Shown here piece after piece: positions 25,601 to 35,755 of a stretch of 64,000 nt of DNA. How positions within the stretch are numbered: position 1 is the stretch's first letter; every line of letters begins with the position of its first letter. The position numbers and the translations under genes were made by a program. The stretch comes from a virus. Its lineage: Duplodnaviria; Caudoviricetes. The stretch covers positions 1 through 64,000 of IMG/VR virus record IMGVR_UViG_3300044305_003112; one strand, given 5' to 3'. The notes beneath the pieces are model-generated. The model was not told where the DNA came from. It saw only the letters and a list, made by a program, of their open reading frames with translations, and made no database searches.

Positions 25601-27175
25601 ATGAGTCAGGATTTAAAAAAAATAATAAGACAAGAATACATAAGATGTGCAAAAGATCCTGTTCATTTTATGAAAAAGTATTGTTATATTCAACATCCTC
25701 AAAGAGGAAGAATACAATTTAGTTTATATCCTTTCCAAGAAAGAGTATTAGGTTTATTTAAAGATAATCCTTATTCAATAATTCTTAAATCTAGACAATT
25801 AGGTATTTCAACATTAACTGCTGCTTATTCTTTATGGATGATGTTATTTCATAAAGATAAAAATGTTCTTTGTATAGCAACTAAACAAGAAACAGCTAAA
25901 AATATGGTTACTAAGGTAAAATTTATGTATGAAAATTTACCTTCTTGGTTATCTATAGATTACATAGAAAATAATAAATTAACATTAAGATTAAATAATG
26001 GCTCACAAATTAAAGCAACGTCAGCTTCAAGTGATGCAGGTAGATCTGAAGCAGTTTCTTTATTATTAATTGATGAAGCTGCATTTATTGAAAATATAGC
26101 AGAAATATGGGCATCAGCTCAACAAACATTAGCAACTGGTGGGGGGTGTATTGCTTTAAGTACACCATATGGAACTGGAGGATGGTTTCATCAAACATGG
26201 GTTAAAGCTGAAGCAAAAGAAAATGAATTTTTACCAATTAAATTACCTTGGTTTGTACACCCTGAAAGAGATAAAGAATGGAGAGCAAGACAAGATGAAT
26301 TGTTAGGAGATCCTAGAATAGCAGCACAAGAATGTGATTGTGATTTTAGTACATCCGGAGATATAGTCTTCTACTCAGAATGGTTAGATTTTATTAAAGA
26401 AACAACAATAAAAGAACCATTAGAAAGAAGAGGAGTAGACCAAAATTTGTGGATTTGGGAACCAGCTGATTATTCAAGAGAATATATGATAACAGCAGAT
26501 GTAGCTAGAGGTGATAGTAAAGATTTCTCGGCTTGTCATGTTATTGACATTGAAACAAATGTTCAAGTAGCAGAATATAAAGGTCAAATGCCTCCAAAAG
26601 AATTTGGTTATTTTTTAGTAGGTTTAGCATCTGAATATAATAATGCTTTGTTAGTAGTTGAAAATGCTAATATAGGTTGGGCTACATTAGATGCTATTAT
26701 AGAAAGAGGTTATAGAAATTTATACCAATCACCAAAATCAGATCAACTTACTGCAGAATCATACTTAAGAGTATTTGAAGGAAACTCAGAAATGACTCCA
26801 GGATTTACAATGTCAATGAGAACTCGACCTTTAGTAATTAATAAATTTAGAGAATTTGTTGGTGATAGAAGTACAACAATCCAATCAAAACGTTTATTAG
26901 AAGAAATGAAAGTATTTATTTGGAAAAATGGAAGACCAGAAGCTCAAACAGGCTACAACGATGACTTGGTTATGTCATTTGGGATTGGTATGTTCCTACG
27001 TGATACTTCATTAAAGTTTCAACAACAGGGATTAGATAGTGCTAGAGCAGCACTAAAAAATGTAACAAGCACAAAACCTAACTTTAAAGGAGTATATACT
27101 AACAATGCAGTAGAAAATCCTTATAAAATGAAAATTAATGGAAAAGATGAAAGCATTGATTGGTTGTTAAGATAA
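25601..27175 (+). CDS. terL: Terminase large subunit (T4 gp17-like)
   Basis: LKSRQLGIS Walker A, LLLIDEAAF Walker B, LSTPYG, ITADVARG nuclease motif, NDDLVMS. Confidence 0.95.
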   Translation: MSQDLKKIIRQEYIRCAKDPVHFMKKYCYIQHPQRGRIQFSLYPFQERVLGLFKDNPYSIILKSRQLGISTLTAAYSLWMMLFHKDKNVLCIATKQETAKNMVTKVKFMYENLPSWLSIDYIENNKLTLRLNNGSQIKATSASSDAGRSEAVSLLLIDEAAFIENIAEIWASAQQTLATGGGCIALSTPYGTGGWFHQTWVKAEAKENEFLPIKLPWFVHPERDKEWRARQDELLGDPRIAAQECDCDFSTSGDIVFYSEWLDFIKETTIKEPLERRGVDQNLWIWEPADYSREYMITADVARGDSKDFSACHVIDIETNVQVAEYKGQMPPKEFGYFLVGLASEYNNALLVVENANIGWATLDAIIERGYRNLYQSPKSDQLTAESYLRVFEGNSEMTPGFTMSMRTRPLVINKFREFVGDRSTTIQSKRLLEEMKVFIWKNGRPEAQTGYNDDLVMSFGIGMFLRDTSLKFQQQGLDSARAALKNVTSTKPNFKGVYTNNAVENPYKMKINGKDESIDWLLR

Positions 27176-27198: not shown

Positions 27199-29058
27199 AT
27201 GGCAGATAAAGGCTTATTTTCAAGATTAAGAAGATTATTCGGAACAGACGTATTAATTCGTAACGTAGGGGGTAATCAACTTAAGGTTATGGATGTCAAT
27301 CAGATACAAATGTCTGGTGATCTAGAAACTAACTCATTAATAGATAGATTTAATAGAGTTTATACAAACTCTCCAAATTCATTATATGGTCAACAAACAA
27401 ATTTTAACTATCAAACGTTAAGACCATATCTTTATTCAGAATATGACGCAATGGATACTGATGCTATAGTTGCATCAGCACTCGATATTTTAGCAGATGA
27501 ATCTACATTAAAAAATGATATGGGAGAAGTTCTTCATATTAAAAGTTCAGATGAAAATATTCAAAAAATATTATATAATTTATTTTATGATGTAATGAAT
27601 ATTGAATTTAATTTATGGCCTTGGATTAGAAATATGGCTAAATATGGAGATTTCTTTTTAAAATTAGAAATAGCAGAAAAGTTTGGGGTATATAATGTAA
27701 TTCCTTATACGGCGTTTCATATTGAAAGACAAGAAGGTTGGAATCAAGAAAACCCACAAGAAATAAGATTTAGATATGATCCTGACGGTATAGCAACATC
27801 TGATTATGGTTATTTTAATGTTCCTAATTCTGGTGAACAAGCAAATAATATATTTTTTGATAATTATGAAATGGCTCATTTTAGACTATTAACAGATATG
27901 AATTTTTTACCTTATGGAAGATCATATATAGAACCTGCTCGAAAATTATTTAAACAATATACTTTAATGGAAGATGCTATGTTAATTCATAGAGTTGTTA
28001 GAGCACCTGAAAAAAGAATATTTTACATGAATGTTGGTTCTATTCCTCCTAATGAAGTAGATGCATTTATGGAAAAAACCATAACAAAATTAAAGCGTAC
28101 TCCTCATATGGACGAAAATACAGGTGAGTATAATCTAAAATATAACCTTCAAAACTTATTAGAAGATTTTTATATACCAGTTAGGGGTAATGACACAGCT
28201 ACAAAAATAGAAAATTTAGGAGGACTACAATTTGATGGAATTCAAGATGTAGAGTATATGAGAGAAAAATTATTTGCAGCTTTAAAAGTTCCAAAAGCAT
28301 TTATGGGTTATGATGCTAATTTAGAAGGTAAAGCAACTTTAGCTGCCCAAGATATTAGATTTGCAAGAACTATAGAAAGAATCCAAAGAATATTTACATC
28401 AGAGTTATATAAAATAGCTTTAATTCATCTATACACTCAGGGCTATAGAGATGCGAGTTTAACTAATTTTGAAATATCGTTAACAACTCCATCAATAATA
28501 TATGATCAAGAAAGAATAGCATTAATGACTGAAAAAATGACATTAGCTCAATCAATGATAGATAGTAAATTAATTCCATCTGATTGGATTTATGAAAATA
28601 TATTCCACTTTAGTGAGGATGAATATGAAGAATACAGAGATTTAATTAAAAATGATGTTAAGCGTACATTTAGATTAACACAGATAGAAGGAGAAGGAAA
28701 TGACCCATTAGAAACAGGACAATCATATGGAACTCCACATGATTTAGCTGCATTATATGGTAAAGGAAGAATGTACTCAGATCCATCTAATATACCAGCA
28801 GGTTATGATGAAGGTACAACTAAAAAAGTACCATTAGGTCGTCCTAAAAAACAATTAACAAAACGTAATAAACAAGAAGATAATTTAGGAAAAGATAGAT
28901 TAGGAGTAAAAAGAATGAAAGATGATAAAAGTGTTAATGAAACAACTGCTAATCAAATAATGAATAAGTATGAAAGTATGTTGAAAAACATTCCTTATAG
29001 CGAGAAAAAAATTATAACTGAAAAAAAAGTTAAAAAAAGTAAAAAAACTAAAAAATAA
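27199..29058 (+). CDS. Portal protein (T4 gp20-like)
   Basis: YDAMDTDAIVASALDI, EDAMLIHRVVRAPEKRIFY, EDFYIPVRG. Follows the terminase. Confidence 0.93.
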   Translation: MADKGLFSRLRRLFGTDVLIRNVGGNQLKVMDVNQIQMSGDLETNSLIDRFNRVYTNSPNSLYGQQTNFNYQTLRPYLYSEYDAMDTDAIVASALDILADESTLKNDMGEVLHIKSSDENIQKILYNLFYDVMNIEFNLWPWIRNMAKYGDFFLKLEIAEKFGVYNVIPYTAFHIERQEGWNQENPQEIRFRYDPDGIATSDYGYFNVPNSGEQANNIFFDNYEMAHFRLLTDMNFLPYGRSYIEPARKLFKQYTLMEDAMLIHRVVRAPEKRIFYMNVGSIPPNEVDAFMEKTITKLKRTPHMDENTGEYNLKYNLQNLLEDFYIPVRGNDTATKIENLGGLQFDGIQDVEYMREKLFAALKVPKAFMGYDANLEGKATLAAQDIRFARTIERIQRIFTSELYKIALIHLYTQGYRDASLTNFEISLTTPSIIYDQERIALMTEKMTLAQSMIDSKLIPSDWIYENIFHFSEDEYEEYRDLIKNDVKRTFRLTQIEGEGNDPLETGQSYGTPHDLAALYGKGRMYSDPSNIPAGYDEGTTKKVPLGRPKKQLTKRNKQEDNLGKDRLGVKRMKDDKSVNETTANQIMNKYESMLKNIPYSEKKIITEKKVKKSKKTKK

Positions 29059-29108: not shown

Positions 29109-29969
29109 ATGCGTGTAAAACATTCAAAGTTCAAAAATACAGGTCTTTTATTTGAGCTTTTAGTAAGAAAGATTACGTCTGATACTTTAAATGGTAAAGA
29201 TTCACCAGCAGTAAATATTTTAAAAAAATATTTTGTTAATACTGAATTAGGTAAAGAATATAAACTATATGAAACAGTATTTAAAAAATCCGTGGTTGTA
29301 ACTGAAAGTAAAGCAAATATTGTATTAAATACAGTATTAGAAACATCAAGAAAATTAAATAGAAGTTCTTTAAAAAGAGAAAAATATAATATAATTAGAG
29401 AATTAAGGGAAAAATACAATATAGAGGATTTATTTAAGATGAATATAAGTAATTATAAACCTTTAGCAGCTCTATATACATTATTTGAAATTTACAACTC
29501 ACAAGATATAACAGACCCAAATCAAATAGTAGATAATAAAGTAACTCTTTTAGAACATTTAACATCTAAAGAAGTTAACAAATCAGAAGTTAAACACGAT
29601 ATTATAGAAGAATTTAAATCATATGATAAAGATTTAAGAATTCTTACTTACAGAGTATTATTAGAAAAATTTAATGATAAATATTCTGACTTAAATAAGT
29701 CCCAAAAATCAATTTTAAGAGAATTTATTAATAATGTAGATAATACTAATAAATTAAAAGAATTTTATAATAATAAAATAATTGAATTAAAAAGGAATAT
29801 TTTATTAGAAACTAAAAAAGTAAAAGATAGAGCTACAAAAATAAAATTATTAGAAGTTAACAAATACATTGTTGAAATTGATAAAAGAAAAAAAATCAAT
29901 AATAATAATTTAGTAGATTTATTACAATATTATAGTCTTTTTGAAGAATTACAAAAGTCAAATGGGTAA
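29109..29969 (+). CDS. Hypothetical head-assembly-region protein
   Basis: 286-aa helical protein between portal and protease, with a late promoter. Confidence 0.55.
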   Translation: MRVKHSKFKNTGLLFELLVRKITSDTLNGKDSPAVNILKKYFVNTELGKEYKLYETVFKKSVVVTESKANIVLNTVLETSRKLNRSSLKREKYNIIRELREKYNIEDLFKMNISNYKPLAALYTLFEIYNSQDITDPNQIVDNKVTLLEHLTSKEVNKSEVKHDIIEEFKSYDKDLRILTYRVLLEKFNDKYSDLNKSQKSILREFINNVDNTNKLKEFYNNKIIELKRNILLETKKVKDRATKIKLLEVNKYIVEIDKRKKINNNNLVDLLQYYSLFEELQKSNG

Positions 29970-31242
29970 ATTTAAATTTAAATTAAAAGAAGCCGAACCA
30001 GGAGATGAAATAATTTTCATTGAACCTAGACCTGAAGCCGAAAGAGGTGTTGATGATGAACCTGGAGGTAAAATAATTTATGTTGATGATGAAAGAGTTC
30101 CTAAAGAATTATTATTAAAAATCCAAGAAAAATATGGTCCAATTCCTAAAGGAAGTTATTTCACAGATAATTTTTCAATGTATTGGGAAAAATACGAACC
30201 AGATTATGGGGGTGAAGTAAATACAGGAACTAGATTAGTAACTAAACAATACAGATTACCTAATATTAATAATGTATTTAAATCATTTGTAAAACTTAAT
30301 AATGAAATTGAATGGTTAGAAAAAAATGAAGATATTAAAAAAGATGAGAGACTAACTGAAATTTTACAACAAATAAGAAAAGCATTTAACGCTTATCGTA
30401 CCCATATCAGGAAAGAATACCCAGAATTATATAAAGGTTTAAGGAATATAAGTGAAGATGAAATAGAAGAAATTTCAACAACAGGAGGAGGTGCAGGGGC
30501 AGCTTCATTTACACCTGGTACCGGGGGACAATATGCAACCCCAAATGCTTTTAGAAAAAATAAAAAGGCAAAAGGTACTGATGATGATATATTAACTAAA
30601 AAATTTGGTTATAAGTTAGCAGAAAATAAAAAAGAAGAAGAAAAAGATTCTAAAGATAAAGAAACCAAAGATTCTAAAGATTCCAAAGATAAAGAAGAAA
30701 AAAACGAAAAAAGAGAAAAACTTTTAAAACAAAAAGAAGAAATTGAAAAATTACTTAAAAAAGATCCAAAAGATTTAGATGATAAAGAAATAAAAAGTTT
30801 TGATGACATGTATAAAGCAGCCCCATCATATGAAGAACTAGGACAGTTTTGGGAAAGTTTAAATGAAGGAGTAGGAGCTATATTAGGACCAGGCCCTAAA
30901 GCAGGTCCTGATGGGGTAAAAGATAATTACTATGTAAGTAATTTTAAATATAAATTAGTTCCAAAAAAAATTAAAGGATCTGGAATATATAATGATGGGA
31001 GTGTAAAGCAATTATGGGAGGATGAAGATAATGATTCCAAAAAAAACTTTCAAAAAACAAGAATAGACGCATTTAATTCAATTGAGAAAGATCTTAACCA
31101 TATTTATAAGGCGATATCGAATGCTAAAAATGAGACAATAAAACATTATAAAAATAATCCTGATTCATATAAAGTTTTAAAACCAACAGATTTAATTAGT
31201 GATTATTTAAAAGATATAAAAAATTTAATAGGACAAGAATGA
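29941..31242 (+). CDS. Putative prohead core/internal protein; likely start 29962
   Basis: LKE, IEE, LAE, LNE and LWE sites; contains a segment resembling the mature capsid N-terminus. Confidence 0.55.
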   Translation: MKNYKSQMGKFKFKLKEAEPGDEIIFIEPRPEAERGVDDEPGGKIIYVDDERVPKELLLKIQEKYGPIPKGSYFTDNFSMYWEKYEPDYGGEVNTGTRLVTKQYRLPNINNVFKSFVKLNNEIEWLEKNEDIKKDERLTEILQQIRKAFNAYRTHIRKEYPELYKGLRNISEDEIEEISTTGGGAGAASFTPGTGGQYATPNAFRKNKKAKGTDDDILTKKFGYKLAENKKEEEKDSKDKETKDSKDSKDKEEKNEKREKLLKQKEEIEKLLKKDPKDLDDKEIKSFDDMYKAAPSYEELGQFWESLNEGVGAILGPGPKAGPDGVKDNYYVSNFKYKLVPKKIKGSGIYNDGSVKQLWEDEDNDSKKNFQKTRIDAFNSIEKDLNHIYKAISNAKNETIKHYKNNPDSYKVLKPTDLISDYLKDIKNLIGQE

Positions 31243-31835
31243 AATCATTACAAGAACAATACAACCAAATAAAAAAAGGTAAAGGCCATAAAGATGTTTT
31301 TTTGAAAGAAGCAAAACGTCTTTTTCCTAATATGATAAGTAATCTAAATACTTTTGATCAAGCAACAACTATTTTAAAACAACGTAATGTTATACAAGAA
31401 AACATTGCAGGATTAGGTATAGTAACTGATGCTAAATCAAATTCTCCTGATTGGCATAAAATTTTTGAAGATAATCTTAATAAAAATAATTATGATTACA
31501 CAGATCAAAAAGCAATAGATAATCAAAATTGGGCAGAAAGAGAAAAAGGTGTATATTTTGAAATGGAAAAAGTAAGAGATCTTATAACTGATCAAAATAT
31601 AGGAGATTTATTAGCAAAAGCAAAAAACACAGTTACTAAAAATTTAGCAAAAGATCCCTTATATTACATAAAAAATGCAGCATTTTCAGTAGATAAATTA
31701 GGATATTCAGCTGATAGACCTGGATTAAAACCTACACAAATAAAAGGAAAACATGTTGGTAGTGGTTATGGTAATCCTTCAAAGTCAAAAATCAAACCAG
31801 GAGAACCTGGAACCGGATATACACCTGTTAAATAA
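31239..31835 (+). CDS. Hypothetical head-region protein
   Basis: 198 aa; LQE, LKE and IQE sites; directly upstream of the protease. Confidence 0.5.
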   Translation: MKSLQEQYNQIKKGKGHKDVFLKEAKRLFPNMISNLNTFDQATTILKQRNVIQENIAGLGIVTDAKSNSPDWHKIFEDNLNKNNYDYTDQKAIDNQNWAEREKGVYFEMEKVRDLITDQNIGDLLAKAKNTVTKNLAKDPLYYIKNAAFSVDKLGYSADRPGLKPTQIKGKHVGSGYGNPSKSKIKPGEPGTGYTPVK

Positions 31836-31838
31836 GAT

Positions 31839-32444
31839 ATGAAAAAAATTTTAATAGAAACATTACCATTTGTACCTTCTAAAATTTCATTAACAGAAGG
31901 TAAAAAATCAGAAAGAGGAAATCCTATAGTTGAGGGTATTTTAGCTACTTGTGAAGTTAAAAATGGAAATGGAAGATATTATTCAAAAGATCTTTGGCAA
32001 AGAGAAATGGATAAATATCAAGAAGTAATAAATGATAATAGAGCAGTAGGAGAATTAGATCATCCTGAATCATCTGTTGTTAATTTAAAAAATGTTTCAC
32101 ATAACATTACTGATACTTGGTGGGATGGAGACAATGTAATGGGTAAAATAGAAATACTTCCTACTCCATCAGGTAATATTTTAAAATCACTTATTGATAG
32201 TGGTATAACAGTGGGTGTTTCTTCAAGAGGAATGGGTTCATTAAAACCAATGGGGGAAGTTCAAGAAGTACAAGATGATTTTGAATTATTATGTTGGGAT
32301 TTTGTTTCAACTCCTTCAAACCCAGGTTCATATATGCAATTAGTAAAAGAAGGTCTTGATTTTTCTTCAAAAAACCAATATGAAAAATTAAATTCTATTA
32401 TTTATGAAATCCTTTGCTCAAAAGGAAGTTGTCCAATTTCATAA
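31839..32444 (+). CDS. Prohead protease (T4 gp21-like)
   Basis: NGNGRYYS, GELDHPE (catalytic His), VGVSSRGMGS (catalytic Ser), WDFVSTPS. Confidence 0.93.
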   Translation: MKKILIETLPFVPSKISLTEGKKSERGNPIVEGILATCEVKNGNGRYYSKDLWQREMDKYQEVINDNRAVGELDHPESSVVNLKNVSHNITDTWWDGDNVMGKIEILPTPSGNILKSLIDSGITVGVSSRGMGSLKPMGEVQEVQDDFELLCWDFVSTPSNPGSYMQLVKEGLDFSSKNQYEKLNSIIYEILCSKGSCPIS

Positions 32445-32569: not shown

Positions 32570-34051
32570 ATGAATAGAGATTTTTTAAAAGAGGCTATTG
32601 CCGACGCTAAAGCTGTAAAGGAATCAGCTATCGCGAATGCTAAAGCTGCTTTGGAGGAATCATTTACACCACATCTGAAAAACATGTTATCTATGAAATT
32701 ACAAGAAATGGATAAAGAAGATGATGTCAAAGAAATGATGTCAAAATCATATGAAGAAGATGATGTAAATGAAGCCAAAGAAGAAGAAGAAGCAAAAAAA
32801 GCTAAAAATGAAGCTAAAATGTCAAATCCAGTAATGAGAAAAGGTTTAAAGGGAGACGATCCTGCAGAACTTGAAACCGAAAAAGATCGTTTAAAAAAGG
32901 AAGACATGAATTTAGATGAAATTTTAGCAGAATTAGAATCTGACACAGTCAATGAAGACGCTAGAACAGATGCTGAAGAAGAAGGATACAAAGATGGTAT
33001 CAAAGACGCTAAAGCAGATATTAAAAAAGCTGTCGACGATGTTAAATTACAAGAAGACGAACGTACAGACGCTGAAGAAGAGGGATATGAAGATGGGATG
33101 AAAGATGAAAAAGAAGACCTTGAAGGTGATGTAGGTGAGGAAGAAGTAATAGATATCGAAGATATGACTGATGAAGATTTAAAAGGATTTATCGAAGACG
33201 TTATTGAAGACATGGTTACTGCTGGTGAATTAGAAGCTGGTGGTGATACTGTTGAAATGTCCGATGAAGAAGAAGAAGTTGACGTAGACGTAGATGTTGA
33301 TGTTGATACTGAAGAAACAGAAGAAACAGAAACTGAAGTTGAAGTCACTGAAGAAATGAAAAGTAAAGAAGAAGTTAAAGAAATAGTTGGAGTAGCTGCT
33401 GGTTTTGCAGGTTTATTTGCTGCCGCAGGCGGTATGGCTGCACTACAAATGGCTATGGAAAACCCAGAAACTGCTGCTAAATATCCAAAAGTTTCGGCTT
33501 TATTGGATATATTAAGTGATGTAGGTGCAGAAGCATCTAAAGCAAAATTTTCAGAAGCAACAGGAGAAGAAGTAGCTTCCGAAGAACACTTAAGTGCAAT
33601 TGAGGATAAGCTTGGCGGTATATTTGAAAACGCTAGAACAGATGCTGAAGAAGAAGGATACAAAGATGGTATGAAAGACGCTAAAGCAGATATGAAAGAA
33701 GCTTATTCAACAATTAAAACATTAAAAAGTGAACTTAATGAAATTAACTTACTGAATGCTAAATTGTTGTATACCAATAAGATTTTTAAATCAAAAACAT
33801 TAAATGAGAATCAAAAGGTTAAAGTATTAACTGCTTTTGACAAAGCTGAAACTGTAAAAGAAGCAAAATTAGTTTATGAAACTTTACAAGATGGATTAAA
33901 AGCTAAATTAAAAGCTAAAGGTTCAATCAAAGAAAGTAGAATAGGCAGAGCTTCAAAAACTCTTCATGCTCCTAAAAAAGCAAATAAAAAACCTATCGTT
34001 GAATCAAATCAAATGGTTGATAGATTTAAAAAACTAGCAGGAATAATTTAA
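32570..34051 (+). CDS. Prohead scaffold/core protein (gp22-like)
   Basis: Highly acidic coiled coil between protease and capsid; C-terminal LNEINLLNAKLLY...RFKKLAGI. Confidence 0.8.
   Translation: MNRDFLKEAIADAKAVKESAIANAKAALEESFTPHLKNMLSMKLQEMDKEDDVKEMMSKSYEEDDVNEAKEEEEAKKAKNEAKMSNPVMRKGLKGDDPAELETEKDRLKKEDMNLDEILAELESDTVNEDARTDAEEEGYKDGIKDAKADIKKAVDDVKLQEDERTDAEEEGYEDGMKDEKEDLEGDVGEEEVIDIEDMTDEDLKGFIEDVIEDMVTAGELEAGGDTVEMSDEEEEVDVDVDVDVDTEETEETETEVEVTEEMKSKEEVKEIVGVAAGFAGLFAAAGGMAALQMAMENPETAAKYPKVSALLDILSDVGAEASKAKFSEATGEEVASEEHLSAIEDKLGGIFENARTDAEEEGYKDGMKDAKADMKEAYSTIKTLKSELNEINLLNAKLLYTNKIFKSKTLNENQKVKVLTAFDKAETVKEAKLVYETLQDGLKAKLKAKGSIKESRIGRASKTLHAPKKANKKPIVESNQMVDRFKKLAGII
32959..33021 (+). 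repeat. 63-nt direct repeat, copy 1 (copy 2 at 33631..33693, degenerate copy near 33060)
   Basis: 62/63 identical; encodes ARTDAEEEGYKDG(I/M)KDAKAD. Confidence 0.9.
33631..33693 (+). repeat. 63-nt direct repeat, copy 2
   Basis: Matches 32959..33021 with one mismatch. Confidence 0.9.
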
Positions 34052-34084: not shown

Positions 34085-35755
34085 ATGAGTCAATTAAATC
34101 AATTATTAGAAAGCGCTAATCCGTATAAATCACTACAAAGTGATGCGGCTAGATTAGCAAACAAGTGGGCTAAGACAGGCTTACTTGAAGGCTTGGATAA
34201 TGAAACATCGAAAAATAATATGTCGATGTTATTAGAAAACCAAGCAAAACAATTGGTGACGGAAGCTTCTAATACTGGAGGAGGATCAGGTGCTGGTACA
34301 TTTACTGCTGGTACAGGTGCTCAATGGGCAGGTGTTGCTTTACCATTGGTAAGAAAAGTATTTGGACAAATCGCAGCGAAGGAATTCGTTTCGGTTCAAC
34401 CAATGAACTTACCTTCTGGTCTAGTATTTTACCTAGACTTCCAGTATGGAACTAACCACTCACCATTTACAAGCGGAAATTCACTTTATGGTGATACTTC
34501 AGCAAACTTTGGAAATACTAACACAGGTGGTCTTTATGGAGCTGGTAGATTTAACTATTCTACAAACCAAACAAGCTCTATACAAGTAGCAGCTGCAAGT
34601 GTATATTCAGCTTCATGGTCAGACTTAAATTTTGATGGACAGTATTCAGCTTCAGCTGTTGCTGATGAATTTGACATAGTTCAATTCCCAGTCGCTAATT
34701 TAACTAGCTATGATGAAGAAGCAGTTAGAGCATTCCAATTATTTTCACAATCAGGTGATGGTAATACAAATATTACAGCTTACCCACAATTTACAAGAAT
34801 TAGTGGTACTAACTTACTATTTGTTATAACATCATCTCATGCTACAACAGAAACAGGCGGAAACGCTACATTAGCTTGTAATGTTTCTTACTCTTTAGCA
34901 CCAACTATGGCAGATATTGGTGATTTTGAAGAAGGTAACACTAATTTAAATGGTGATAATAATCCAATTACTATCCCTCAAATTAATGTTCAGTTGAGAA
35001 GTGAAGCAATTGTTGCTAAAACTAAAAAGTTAAAAGCTGTTTGGACTCCTGAGTTCGCTCAAGATTTAAATGCTTACCATTCATTAGATGCAGAAGCTGA
35101 ATTAACTTCTATTATGAGTGAGTATATTTCATTAGAAATAGACTTAGAAATTTTAGATATGTTGATTGAATCAGCAGCTGCTGGAACAGAAATATGGTCA
35201 GCTAAAAATAATAGAGCGATCACAGCAGGTGGTACAACAGATGCACAACATATATCAGCTAATGGTGTATTCTCTGATCTTGGATTCTATAATTCACAAG
35301 GACAATGGTTCCAAACTTTAGGAACTAAAATCCAAAAGTTGAGTAATATTATTCATCAGAAAACACTTAGAGGTGGTGCTAATTTCTTAGTATGTTCTCC
35401 ATCAGTAGGTACAATCTTAGAATCAATTCCAGGATTTGCTGCTAATACAGATGGTGATGCTGCTAAAATGAATTATGCATTTGGTGTGCAAAAAGTTGGA
35501 CAATTAAATGGTAGATATCAAGTTTACAAGAACCCATATATGACTGAAAACCAAATTTTACTTGGATTCAGAGGTTCTCAATTCTTGGAAGCAGGTGCAG
35601 TATTCTCACCTTACGTACCATTAATTATGACTCCAATGGTGTACGATCCAAATACTTTCGTACCAAGAAAAGGTCTATTAACTCGTTATGCGAAGAAAAT
35701 GCTAAGACCTGAATTCTACGGTATAATTAAAGTAGCTGATTTAGATACTATATAA
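34085..35755 (+). CDS. Major capsid protein (T4 gp23-like)
   Basis: LLENQ, VSVQPMNLPSGLVFYLDF, KLKAVWTPEFAQDLNAYH, YVPL...TRYA motifs. Strong terminator downstream. Confidence 0.95.
   Translation: MSQLNQLLESANPYKSLQSDAARLANKWAKTGLLEGLDNETSKNNMSMLLENQAKQLVTEASNTGGGSGAGTFTAGTGAQWAGVALPLVRKVFGQIAAKEFVSVQPMNLPSGLVFYLDFQYGTNHSPFTSGNSLYGDTSANFGNTNTGGLYGAGRFNYSTNQTSSIQVAAASVYSASWSDLNFDGQYSASAVADEFDIVQFPVANLTSYDEEAVRAFQLFSQSGDGNTNITAYPQFTRISGTNLLFVITSSHATTETGGNATLACNVSYSLAPTMADIGDFEEGNTNLNGDNNPITIPQINVQLRSEAIVAKTKKLKAVWTPEFAQDLNAYHSLDAEAELTSIMSEYISLEIDLEILDMLIESAAAGTEIWSAKNNRAITAGGTTDAQHISANGVFSDLGFYNSQGQWFQTLGTKIQKLSNIIHQKTLRGGANFLVCSPSVGTILESIPGFAANTDGDAAKMNYAFGVQKVGQLNGRYQVYKNPYMTENQILLGFRGSQFLEAGAVFSPYVPLIMTPMVYDPNTFVPRKGLLTRYAKKMLRPEFYGIIKVADLDTI

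What the first reader, a model, noticed from the sequence alone, without database searches (positions are those of the whole stretch)
30469..30537. Minor head protein contains a copy of the mature major-capsid N-terminus
Seen: EISTTGGGAGAASFTPGTGGQYA (gene 29941) aligns without gaps to EASNTGGGSGAGTFTAGTGAQWA in the capsid protein (34262..34330), 15/23 identical. In both, the segment starts at a protease-type Glu (IEE, VTE). Established: T4 gp23 is cleaved after its N-terminal delta region and the new N-arm contacts neighbouring subunits. Inference: after cleavage this protein exposes a capsid N-arm mimic that docks in the same groove, for example at the portal vertex or to tether cargo to the inner shell.
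Basis: partly seen in the sequence, partly recalled or inferred. Interest (0 to 1): 0.72.

Follow-up and report, generated by a model that had tools for sequence, protein, structure and literature searches.

The report
Core protein copies capsid N-terminus
In a large group of uncultured marine T4-like phages, a head-interior protein carries, right after a conserved protease cut site, a 22-residue copy of the new N-terminus of the major capsid protein, and the two copies change together from genome to genome, which suggests that both are read by the same partner during head assembly.

Summary
ORF433 (29941/29962-31242) and the gp23-type capsid protein (34085-35755) share an ungapped 23-residue stretch with 15 identities (BLASTP E 3e-7). 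No same-composition shuffle exceeded 13/23, and the next best 23-mer in the window scores 9.

The capsid copy is the first 22 residues of the mature protein. Its VTE60|A61 aligns with T4 gp23 LTE65|A66, so it corresponds to the T4 'N-fist'.

ORF433 belongs to an unnamed family (363 representative clusters) encoded between the portal and the gp21-type protease.
- The Glu before the copy is invariant.
- P3 is L/I/V/M in 138 of 142 unique motifs.
- A second site usually follows the basic tail.

The window protein would therefore release a 51-residue basic peptide that begins with the N-fist copy.

Long-form copies and capsid N-fists keep the same positions invariant. They also share rare residues within genomes: 19 observed against 3.3 expected. 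This includes three contigs tested as blind predictions. Codon usage gives no sign of recent gene conversion.

About a third of the family carries only a short form. T4 and HTVC008M have no such copy.

My reading is same-partner mimicry coupled to cleavage. Where the peptide binds is untested.

The parts
29941..31242 (+). ORF433. Probable true start is ATG 29962, giving 426 aa. Unnamed prohead-core-type protein with a folded N-domain, a disordered motif region, a K/E-rich spacer and a helical C-domain.
   Evidence: start; no Pfam or PHROG hit; 363 clusters, all 'hypothetical'; AF2 with alignment: residues 45-170 and 363-431 confident, 178-245 disordered
30463..30471 (+). IEE. Predicted gp21-type cleavage site, P3-P1, with the cut after E177.
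   Evidence: E177 is the only invariant column in 62 homologues. P3 is L/I/V/M in 138/142 unique motifs. The T4 gp21 rule L/I-X-E is from PMC9026906.
30472..30537 (+). N-fist copy ISTTGGGAGAASFTPGTGGQYA, residues 178-199. The finding's coordinates also include the Glu at 30469.
30532..30624 (+). Family core YATPNAF, then the polybasic tract, then FGYKLAE, ending at the second predicted site LAE228|. Residues 178-228 form a predicted 51-aa peptide with pI 9.7.
   Evidence: Y198, A203 and F204 are nearly invariant. A downstream [LIVM]xE is present in 128/143 motifs; median peptide length is 49 aa. Sites are listed.
30859..30867 (+). LNE309|, a predicted site in front of GVGAILGPGPKA, where the conserved C-terminal part begins.
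34085..35755 (+). Major capsid protein, Gp23 family.
   Evidence: PF07068 E 7e-76, phrog_138; T4 gp23 structures matched
34256..34264 (+). VTE, the capsid maturation cleavage site. E60 aligns with T4 gp23 E65.
   Evidence: E60 invariant in 46 relatives
34265..34330 (+). N-fist equivalent of the mature capsid protein, ASNTGGGSGAGTFTAGTGAQWA, residues 61-82.
   Evidence: T4 N-fist = residues 66-91 (PMC7136217)
31839..32444 (+). Prohead protease (gp21 type, Peptidase_S77), the presumed enzyme for both cuts.
   Evidence: PF03420 E 2.5e-31, phrog_207
32570..34051 (+). Acidic scaffold (gp22-like), a candidate shared partner in the prohead.
   Evidence: Position and composition. Homologous N- and C-termini in phages immuto, Mel-JY01 and RM378.
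27199..29058 (+). Portal protein (gp20 type). Marks the head module in which ORF433 lies.
   Evidence: PF07230 E 1.6e-67

Best explanation
ORF433 is a prohead-core protein of a T4-like phage. It is built into the head precursor. The gp21-type protease then cuts it after the invariant Glu177, in the same register as the capsid protein is cut after Glu60, and again after the basic tail (LAE228). This releases a basic peptide of about 50 residues whose first 22 residues copy the capsid protein's mature N-terminus, the N-fist. The copy is kept in step with the capsid protein of the same genome by selection on the protein, so it most likely occupies the same binding site as the capsid N-fist. My preferred version is a site on the capsid shell that capsid subunits cannot fill themselves, or an inner site used before expansion, with the basic tail free to hold DNA or the acidic scaffold.

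Status of each step:
- Shown: the similarity, its conservation, the cleavage-type context, and the co-variation.
- Inferred: incorporation into the prohead, the cleavage itself, any binding, and its place.
For: 1. The similarity is far beyond chance.
2. The capsid segment is the N-fist equivalent (PMC7136217, PMC9958956).
3. The gene lies between portal and protease, as the T4 core genes 67 and 68 do.
4. E177 is invariant. P3 is L/I/V/M in 138/142 motifs, P2 is mostly D/E and P1' is mostly M/I. A second site follows in 128/143 motifs. T4 gp21 cuts after L/I-X-E and chops core proteins into fragments (PMC9026906).
5. 87 unique long-form copies and 14 unique 22-residue capsid N-fists keep the same positions fixed (S2, T4, G5-7, F13, G16, G18, Q20, aromatic 21, A22) and vary at the same positions.
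6. Own-genome pairs are more alike than shuffled pairs. Rare residues shared within a genome number 19, against a permuted mean of 3.3 and a maximum of 14.
7. Three contigs were fetched to test the prediction. L088 has an ASQ insert and GIGGQ in both copies. L096 has TGAG in both. L090 has Q at P1' in both.
8. The same codon is used at 101/211 identical residues, near the value expected from codon usage. In L088 a shared Ser is AGT in one copy and TCA in the other. The likeness is therefore held at protein level and is not a fresh DNA copy.
9. The motif region is predicted disordered and sits next to a folded helix, as expected for a protease-accessible linker.
Against: - There is no experimental evidence that the protein enters the head or is cut.
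- In T4 the N-fist sockets are on the outside of the expanded shell and are formed by four subunits (PMC9958956), whereas a core peptide is made inside.
- About one third of the family has a short form (MSTSGGAGAY...) that keeps only the first 7-9 residues and the aromatic end. A profile comparison of the whole family with the capsid N-terminus aligns only 9 columns, V.E.S.TGG. The full copy is therefore not needed for the family's basic role.
- Some differences are fixed: Tyr versus Trp at position 21, a hydrophobic versus a polar P1', and A versus G at position 11. The two segments are not interchangeable.
- The clade whose capsid reads GGPLPGAG has not dragged the copy along.
- The co-variation tests are not corrected for phylogeny.
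- Old gene conversion followed by synonymous drift cannot be excluded as the source of shared states.
Confidence: 0.45

Rival explanations
1. The shared partner is the scaffold core, not the shell. Before cleavage, the junction of propeptide and N-fist in the capsid protein contacts the gp22-like scaffold. ORF433 shows the same junction, so it is co-assembled into the core or competes with capsid subunits there, and may influence head size as T4 core genes 67 and 68 do. After the cut the peptide is only debris.
For: In T4 the N-terminal region of gp23 lies inside the unexpanded head. Length mutants A66D, A94V and G97S point to contact with the core (PMC9546572). The peptide is produced inside the head. 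The cleavage register is identical in both proteins. The basic tail would suit an acidic scaffold.
Against: No contact between the N-fist and the scaffold is known structurally. The fixed positions of the copy match those of the capsid N-fist, and the only documented constraints on that N-fist are the mature shell contacts. Nothing was tested here.
Confidence: 0.25
2. The shared stretch is an extended recognition or timing module for the prohead protease, acting as an exosite on the P' side. It marks these two substrates for cutting at a given stage and has no role after cleavage.
For: The part common to the whole family and the capsid protein hugs the scissile bond: [LIV]-x-E|x-S-x-T-G-G. The Glu is invariant and P3 is hydrophobic. 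The motif is disordered.
Against: T4 gp21 is described as needing only L/I-X-E (PMC9026906). The scaffold and other predicted substrates in the window lack the motif. Co-varying positions reach P6' to P19', far beyond usual subsites. The short form drops the middle part without losing the site.
Confidence: 0.2
3. The likeness is a by-product of repeated gene conversion or recombination between the two nearby genes and has no function of its own.
For: The long form looks like a short form plus about 11 residues that match the capsid sequence. Its distribution on the capsid tree is patchy: L048/49/55 and L066 are nested among short forms, and L033 is a short form among long forms. This fits DNA exchange. 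Identical rare residues in both copies are what conversion would give.
Against: Synonymous sites are as different as codon usage predicts, 101/211. In L088 a shared Ser uses AGT in one copy and TCA in the other. 87 unique long forms keep the same invariant positions over deep divergence, and fixed differences (Y/W) persist. Both point to selection.
Confidence: 0.07

Closest known systems
T4 prohead core proteins gp67 and gp68, and the peptides made from them by gp21
   Same: The gene lies between portal (gp20) and protease (gp21). The protein has several L/I/V-x-E sites. It is expected to be built into the core and chopped into fragments, and it has a basic tail like the C-terminus of gp68 (PMC9026906, PMC9958956).
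   Different: No detectable sequence relationship: hhalign probability is below 1% and there is no Pfam or PHROG hit. T4-type gp67 and gp68, and the HTVC008M genes in the same interval, carry no copy of their capsid N-terminus.
T4 gp23 N-fist (residues 66-91 of the mature major capsid protein)
   Same: The capsid-side segment is its positional equivalent. It starts at the residue after the maturation Glu and ends before the conserved WAGVALPLVRK / IGPAVMGMVRR N-arm.
   Different: The sequence itself is not conserved between T4 and this clade. The ORF433 segment is a copy in a different protein with no HK97 fold.
T4 capsid targeting sequences of internal proteins (IPI-III, Alt)
   Same: A short peptide signal next to a gp21 site is thought to bring a non-shell protein into the prohead. 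ORF433 also has a 10-residue N-terminal leader ending LKE (PMC9026906).
   Different: The targeting sequence lies upstream of the cut, is removed, and does not resemble the capsid protein. Here the likeness lies downstream of the cut and stays on the product.
SaPI1 CpmB and other scaffold mimics (recalled from memory, not checked here)
   Same: One assembly protein copies the binding peptide of another in order to use the same site.
   Different: There a scaffold C-terminus is copied by a mobile-element protein to redirect capsid size. Here the phage's own core protein copies the capsid protein's N-terminus.

Membership tests
Substrates of the T4-type prohead protease (gp21, Peptidase S77) / prohead core proteins | Encoded in the head module together with a gp21-type protease | tested here: met
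   ORF433 lies between the portal (PF07230) and the protease (PF03420). The order is the same in 50+ related loci and in phages immuto and Mel-JY01.
Substrates of the T4-type prohead protease (gp21, Peptidase S77) / prohead core proteins | Conserved L/I(/V)-X-E cleavage motif | tested here: met
   E177 is invariant in 62 sequences. P3 is L/I/V/M in 138/142 unique motifs. A second site follows in 128/143.
Substrates of the T4-type prohead protease (gp21, Peptidase S77) / prohead core proteins | Shown to be present in proheads and cleaved during maturation | not testable with these tools
   No proteomic or structural data were found for this clade. This needs mass spectrometry of proheads and virions.
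T4 gp68 / gp67 families | Sequence homology to gp68 or gp67 | tested here: not met
   hhalign of the family alignments A1 and A3 against a T4-type gp68 gives probability 0.15% and 0.07%. There are no Pfam or PHROG hits. gp67 was compared by eye only.
Gp23 major capsid family (a gp24-like paralogue) | HK97-type capsid fold / PF07068 match over the body of the protein | tested here: not met
   No PF07068 hit. The likeness to the capsid protein is limited to 33 residues. The AF2 model is helical plus disordered. There is only one Gp23-family gene in the record and in the immuto and Mel-JY01 genomes.
T4 internal proteins with a capsid targeting sequence | N-terminal leader of about 10 residues ending in L/I-X-E | tested here: inconclusive
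   From ATG 29962 the protein starts MGKFKFKLKE|A, and the family consensus is M..KYKL.E. Such tripeptides are common in this Lys/Glu-rich proteome, and function cannot be tested here.

The most novel reading that the evidence does not exclude
The excised basic peptide is a true structural stand-in for a capsid N-fist. It fills the N-fist sockets left empty where hexamers face the portal (in T4 the five portal-facing N-fists are disordered), or it competes with capsid N-fists to time shell expansion. Its basic tail grips DNA. This would be a peptide 'adaptor' that co-evolves with the capsid protein to solve the symmetry mismatch or to control maturation.
Probability: 0.15. Interest if true: 0.8.

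Novelty: new variant of a known kind. Interest (0 to 1): 0.62.

Why it matters
Prohead core proteins of T4-like phages are poorly understood. How they recognise the shell, and how they influence head size and maturation, is still open even in T4.

This family offers a defined peptide of 22 residues, bracketed by cleavage sites, that tracks the capsid protein's N-terminus across hundreds of marine phage lineages. That is a natural co-variation experiment pointing to a specific contact, and it can be tested directly by mass spectrometry, peptide binding and cryo-EM.

If the copy docks on the shell, it would be a new way for phages to attach internal material to the capsid. It could also serve as a handle for loading cargo into T4-like heads.

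The family is abundant in ocean metagenomes and has no name or Pfam model.

Tried and rejected
- Complex prediction with two copies of capsid residues 82-556 plus ORF433 residues 178-227 gave no verdict. It is neither support nor evidence against. The real socket needs four subunits, which exceeds the size limit.
- AF2 on the single sequence was uninformative, with mean pLDDT 39. With the alignment the domains fold, but the motif stays disordered.
- Foldseek against PDB and BFVD found nothing at E <= 0.001.
- Pfam and PHROGs gave no hit for ORF433, ORF286 or ORF198.
- tblastn of ORF433 against 50,697 phage records found no match at E 1e-3. The immuto and Mel-JY01 homologues were found only by reading the syntenic genes.
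- The profile comparison of the family motif region with the capsid N-terminus gave only 9 aligned columns, because short forms dominate the profile.
- Homology to T4 gp68 is rejected. A shared 'NAF plus basic tail' seen by eye in gp68 is treated as chance.
- I looked for a third copy of the motif in the window and in the record and found none.
- Recent gene conversion is rejected on codon identity. Ancient conversion is not excluded.
- A literature search for a described capsid-N-terminus mimic or for N-fist partners found nothing relevant.

Full report
**Setting.** The window is part of a 73-kb IMG/VR virus record, about 45% complete. Its head module reads as follows:
- large terminase, 25601-27175
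- gp20-type portal, 27199-29058
- ORF286, 29109-29969
- ORF433, 29941-31242
- ORF198, 31239-31835
- gp21-type protease, 31839-32444
- acidic scaffold, 32570-34051
- Gp23-family capsid protein, 34085-35755

The nearest cultured relatives by capsid protein are Flavobacterium phage immuto (57% identity), Microcystis phage Mel-JY01 (49%) and Rhodothermus phage RM378 (38%). T4 proper is about 28% identical.

**Observation.** The two peptides are as quoted.
- BLASTP of the whole proteins finds a single significant segment: 17/33 identities, E 3e-7 with composition correction.
- In 200,000 shuffles of the 23-mer, identity never exceeded 13/23.
- In the six-frame translation of the window, the next best 23-mer has 9/23.
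- No third copy exists in the window or the record.

The Gly-rich composition therefore does not explain the match.

**What the capsid segment is.**
- BLASTP of the first 140 residues against a T4-type gp23 aligns VTE60|A61 with LTE65|A66, the known maturation cut.
- phmmer against solved structures aligns residues 73-124 with positions 18-69 of mature gp23.
- Residues 61-82 are therefore the counterpart of the T4 N-fist, residues 66-91.
- According to the T4 structures, this stretch is disordered and inside the unexpanded head. On expansion it moves to the outer surface and there contacts two subunits of its own capsomer and two of the next.
- It is disordered in the five subunits that face the portal (PMC9546572, PMC9958956, PMC7136217).

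**What ORF433 is.**
- It has no Pfam or PHROG match and no tblastn match in 50,697 phage records.
- HMMER against 1.8 billion representatives finds 363 clusters at E <= 0.001.
- A word-indexed search finds 821 proteins. All are unnamed and many come from Tara and other marine samples.
- In 80 IMG/VR loci fetched through the capsid protein, most that reach far enough upstream hold a homologue in the same place.
- Architectures vary from 73 to more than 600 residues.
- The constant element is [L/I/V]-x-E | x-S-T-(T/S)-G ... Y-x-T-P-x-A-F followed by a Lys-rich tract.
- In phage immuto it is a stand-alone 73-residue gene. In Mel-JY01 it is a 178-residue gene.
- With an alignment, AlphaFold2 gives a confident N-domain (45-170) and C-terminal helices (363-431). 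Residues 178-245, which hold the motif, are disordered.
- Foldseek finds no relative.

**Cleavage context.**
- E177 is the only invariant column among 62 homologues.
- Anchored on the conserved Ser, P3 is L/I/V/M in 138 of 142 unique motifs. P2 is mostly D or E, and P1' is mostly M or I.
- T4 gp21 cuts after L/I-X-E and breaks core proteins gp22, gp67 and gp68 into fragments (PMC9026906, PMC9958956).
- A further [LIVM]-x-E follows the basic tract in 128 of 143 motifs, giving a median fragment of 49 residues.
- In the window these sites are IEE177| and LAE228|, giving a 51-residue fragment with pI 9.7. LNE309| then precedes the conserved GVGAILGPGPKA.
- From the likely start at ATG 29962 the protein opens with MGKFKFKLKE|, a 10-residue leader of T4 targeting-sequence style. 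I treat this only as a hint.

**Two forms.**
- The long form has the consensus MSTTGGGAGAASFTPGTGMQYA, drawn from 87 unique sequences. It aligns without gaps to the 22-residue capsid N-fist consensus TSNTGGGAGAGTFTPGTGAQWA.
- Both keep S2, T4, G5-7, F13, G16, G18, Q20, an aromatic at 21 and A22, and both vary at positions 8-12, 14-15, 17 and 19.
- Fixed differences are Tyr versus Trp at 21, T versus N at 3, A versus G at 11, and a hydrophobic versus a polar P1'.
- A random long form and a random capsid N-fist share 13.1 of 22 residues, so the window's 14 of 22 is typical of the family.
- The short form (MSTSGGAGAY-) lacks the middle 11 residues. It makes up roughly a third of motifs, including the outgroups immuto and Mel-JY01.
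- Because short forms dominate, a profile-profile comparison of the family with the capsid N-terminus aligns only V.E.S.TGG.
- On a capsid tree the long form is not one clade. L048/49/55 and L066 sit among short forms, and L033 is a short form among long forms.

**Co-variation.**
- Among 20 unique genome pairs, own-genome identity exceeds shuffled pairing in all 20,000 permutations.
- Shared rare residues appear in several separate lineages:
  - L060: SS, V8, A9, GVGGQ in both copies.
  - L066: T-S in place of T-G in both.
  - L018/26/28: GEQ in both.
- As a test, I fetched contigs for divergent family members chosen only by their motif.
  - L088 has GGGAASQATF...GIGGQY beside a capsid GGGVASQGNF...GIGGQW.
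  - L096 has TGAG in both.
  - L090 has Gln at P1' in both.
- Counting residues that are rare (<25%) in both families and shared within a genome gives 19, against a permuted mean of 3.3 and a maximum of 14.
- These tests are not corrected for phylogeny, but at least five lineages contribute.

**DNA copy or protein selection?**
- At residues identical between the two segments, the same codon is used in 101 of 211 cases overall and in 6 of 14 in the window. Expectations from codon usage are about 0.25-0.5 for Gly, Thr, Ala, Ser, Phe and Pro, and 0.8 for Gln.
- In L088 a shared Ser is AGT in one copy and TCA in the other.
- There is thus no sign of recent gene conversion.
- Old conversion events may have seeded the long form and some shared states, but the parallel conservation pattern over deep divergence needs selection on the peptide.

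**Interpretation.**
- The simplest account of identical rare states in two unrelated proteins, held at protein level, is that both segments must fit the same partner.
- Both are generated, or predicted to be generated, by the same protease in the same register.
- Which partner is involved is open. Candidates are the shell (N-fist sockets, or an inner site used before expansion), the scaffold core, and the protease itself.
- I favour the shell, because the only documented constraints on an N-fist are its shell contacts and the copy mirrors exactly those conserved positions.
- Against the shell: in T4 the sockets are external and are filled by capsid subunits everywhere except around the portal.
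- The scaffold alternative fits the inside location and the T4 length mutants at A66, A94 and G97 (PMC9546572).
- The protease-exosite alternative fits the universally shared V.E.S.TGG. It does not fit co-variation out to P19', or the absence of the motif from other predicted substrates.
- One complex prediction gave no verdict and is not used as evidence.

**Comparison with known systems.**
- The protein behaves like a T4 prohead core protein in gene position, cleavage-site grammar and basic tail. It is not detectably related to gp67 or gp68.
- It is not a gp24-like capsid paralogue. The clade seems to lack gp24 altogether.
- T4-type phages and pelagiphage HTVC008M have no capsid-N-terminus copy in this gene interval.
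- I found no paper that describes such a copy.
- I class it as a new variant of a known kind: a protease-processed core protein with a novel feature, a co-evolving copy of the capsid N-terminus.

Noticed in passing
window 29941-29969: ORF433 more likely starts at ATG 29962, which overlaps the TAA stop of ORF286 (AATGGGTAA), than at the TTG at 29941. The family consensus N-terminus M..KYKL.E matches MGKFKFKLKE.
   Followed up: partly
window 12828, 16880, 24379, 29962 (gene starts): Several non-core genes open with a 10-12 residue leader ending in L-x-E (MISLTQLLSE, MKFSSTKLLKE, MKKSQLKAAIKE, MGKFKFKLKE). This resembles T4 capsid targeting sequences. Such tripeptides are frequent in this Lys/Glu-rich proteome, so chance is not excluded.
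   Followed up: partly
window 32570-34051: The scaffold protein holds three copies of ARTDAEEEGY(K/E)DG(I/M)KD.K.D. Its C-terminal ...F/W/M-K/Q-K-L-A-G-I-I is shared with immuto, Mel-JY01 and RM378 and is probably the capsid-binding end.
   Followed up: no
window 29109-29969 and 31239-31835: ORF286 and ORF198 flank ORF433. They have clear homologues in the same positions in phages immuto and Mel-JY01, yet no Pfam or PHROG family. They are likely further unnamed core or portal-associated proteins.
   Followed up: no
own record, NC_055915.1, PP395634.1: Only one Gp23-family gene was found in the 73-kb record and in the complete genomes of immuto and Mel-JY01. This clade appears to lack a gp24-type vertex paralogue.
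   Followed up: partly
window 30625-30867: ORF433 carries a lineage-specific Lys/Glu/Asp-rich insert (residues 229-309) between two copies of an F-(G/K)-Y-K-L element. Most homologues go straight from the basic tract to GVGATLGPGPKA.
   Followed up: no
L098 7040-7170 and L096 6768-6940: In a divergent branch, the end of the motif reads G-E-S-P-N-Y in the core protein of one contig and G-Q-S-E-N-W in the capsid protein of another, in place of G-x-G-x-Q-Y/W. The capsid gene of L098 lies beyond the contig end, so the pair could not be checked.
   Followed up: partly
L002 6185-6412 (Mel-JY01): A ribosomal protein S21 (RpsU) gene is annotated inside the head module between protease and scaffold.
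   Followed up: no
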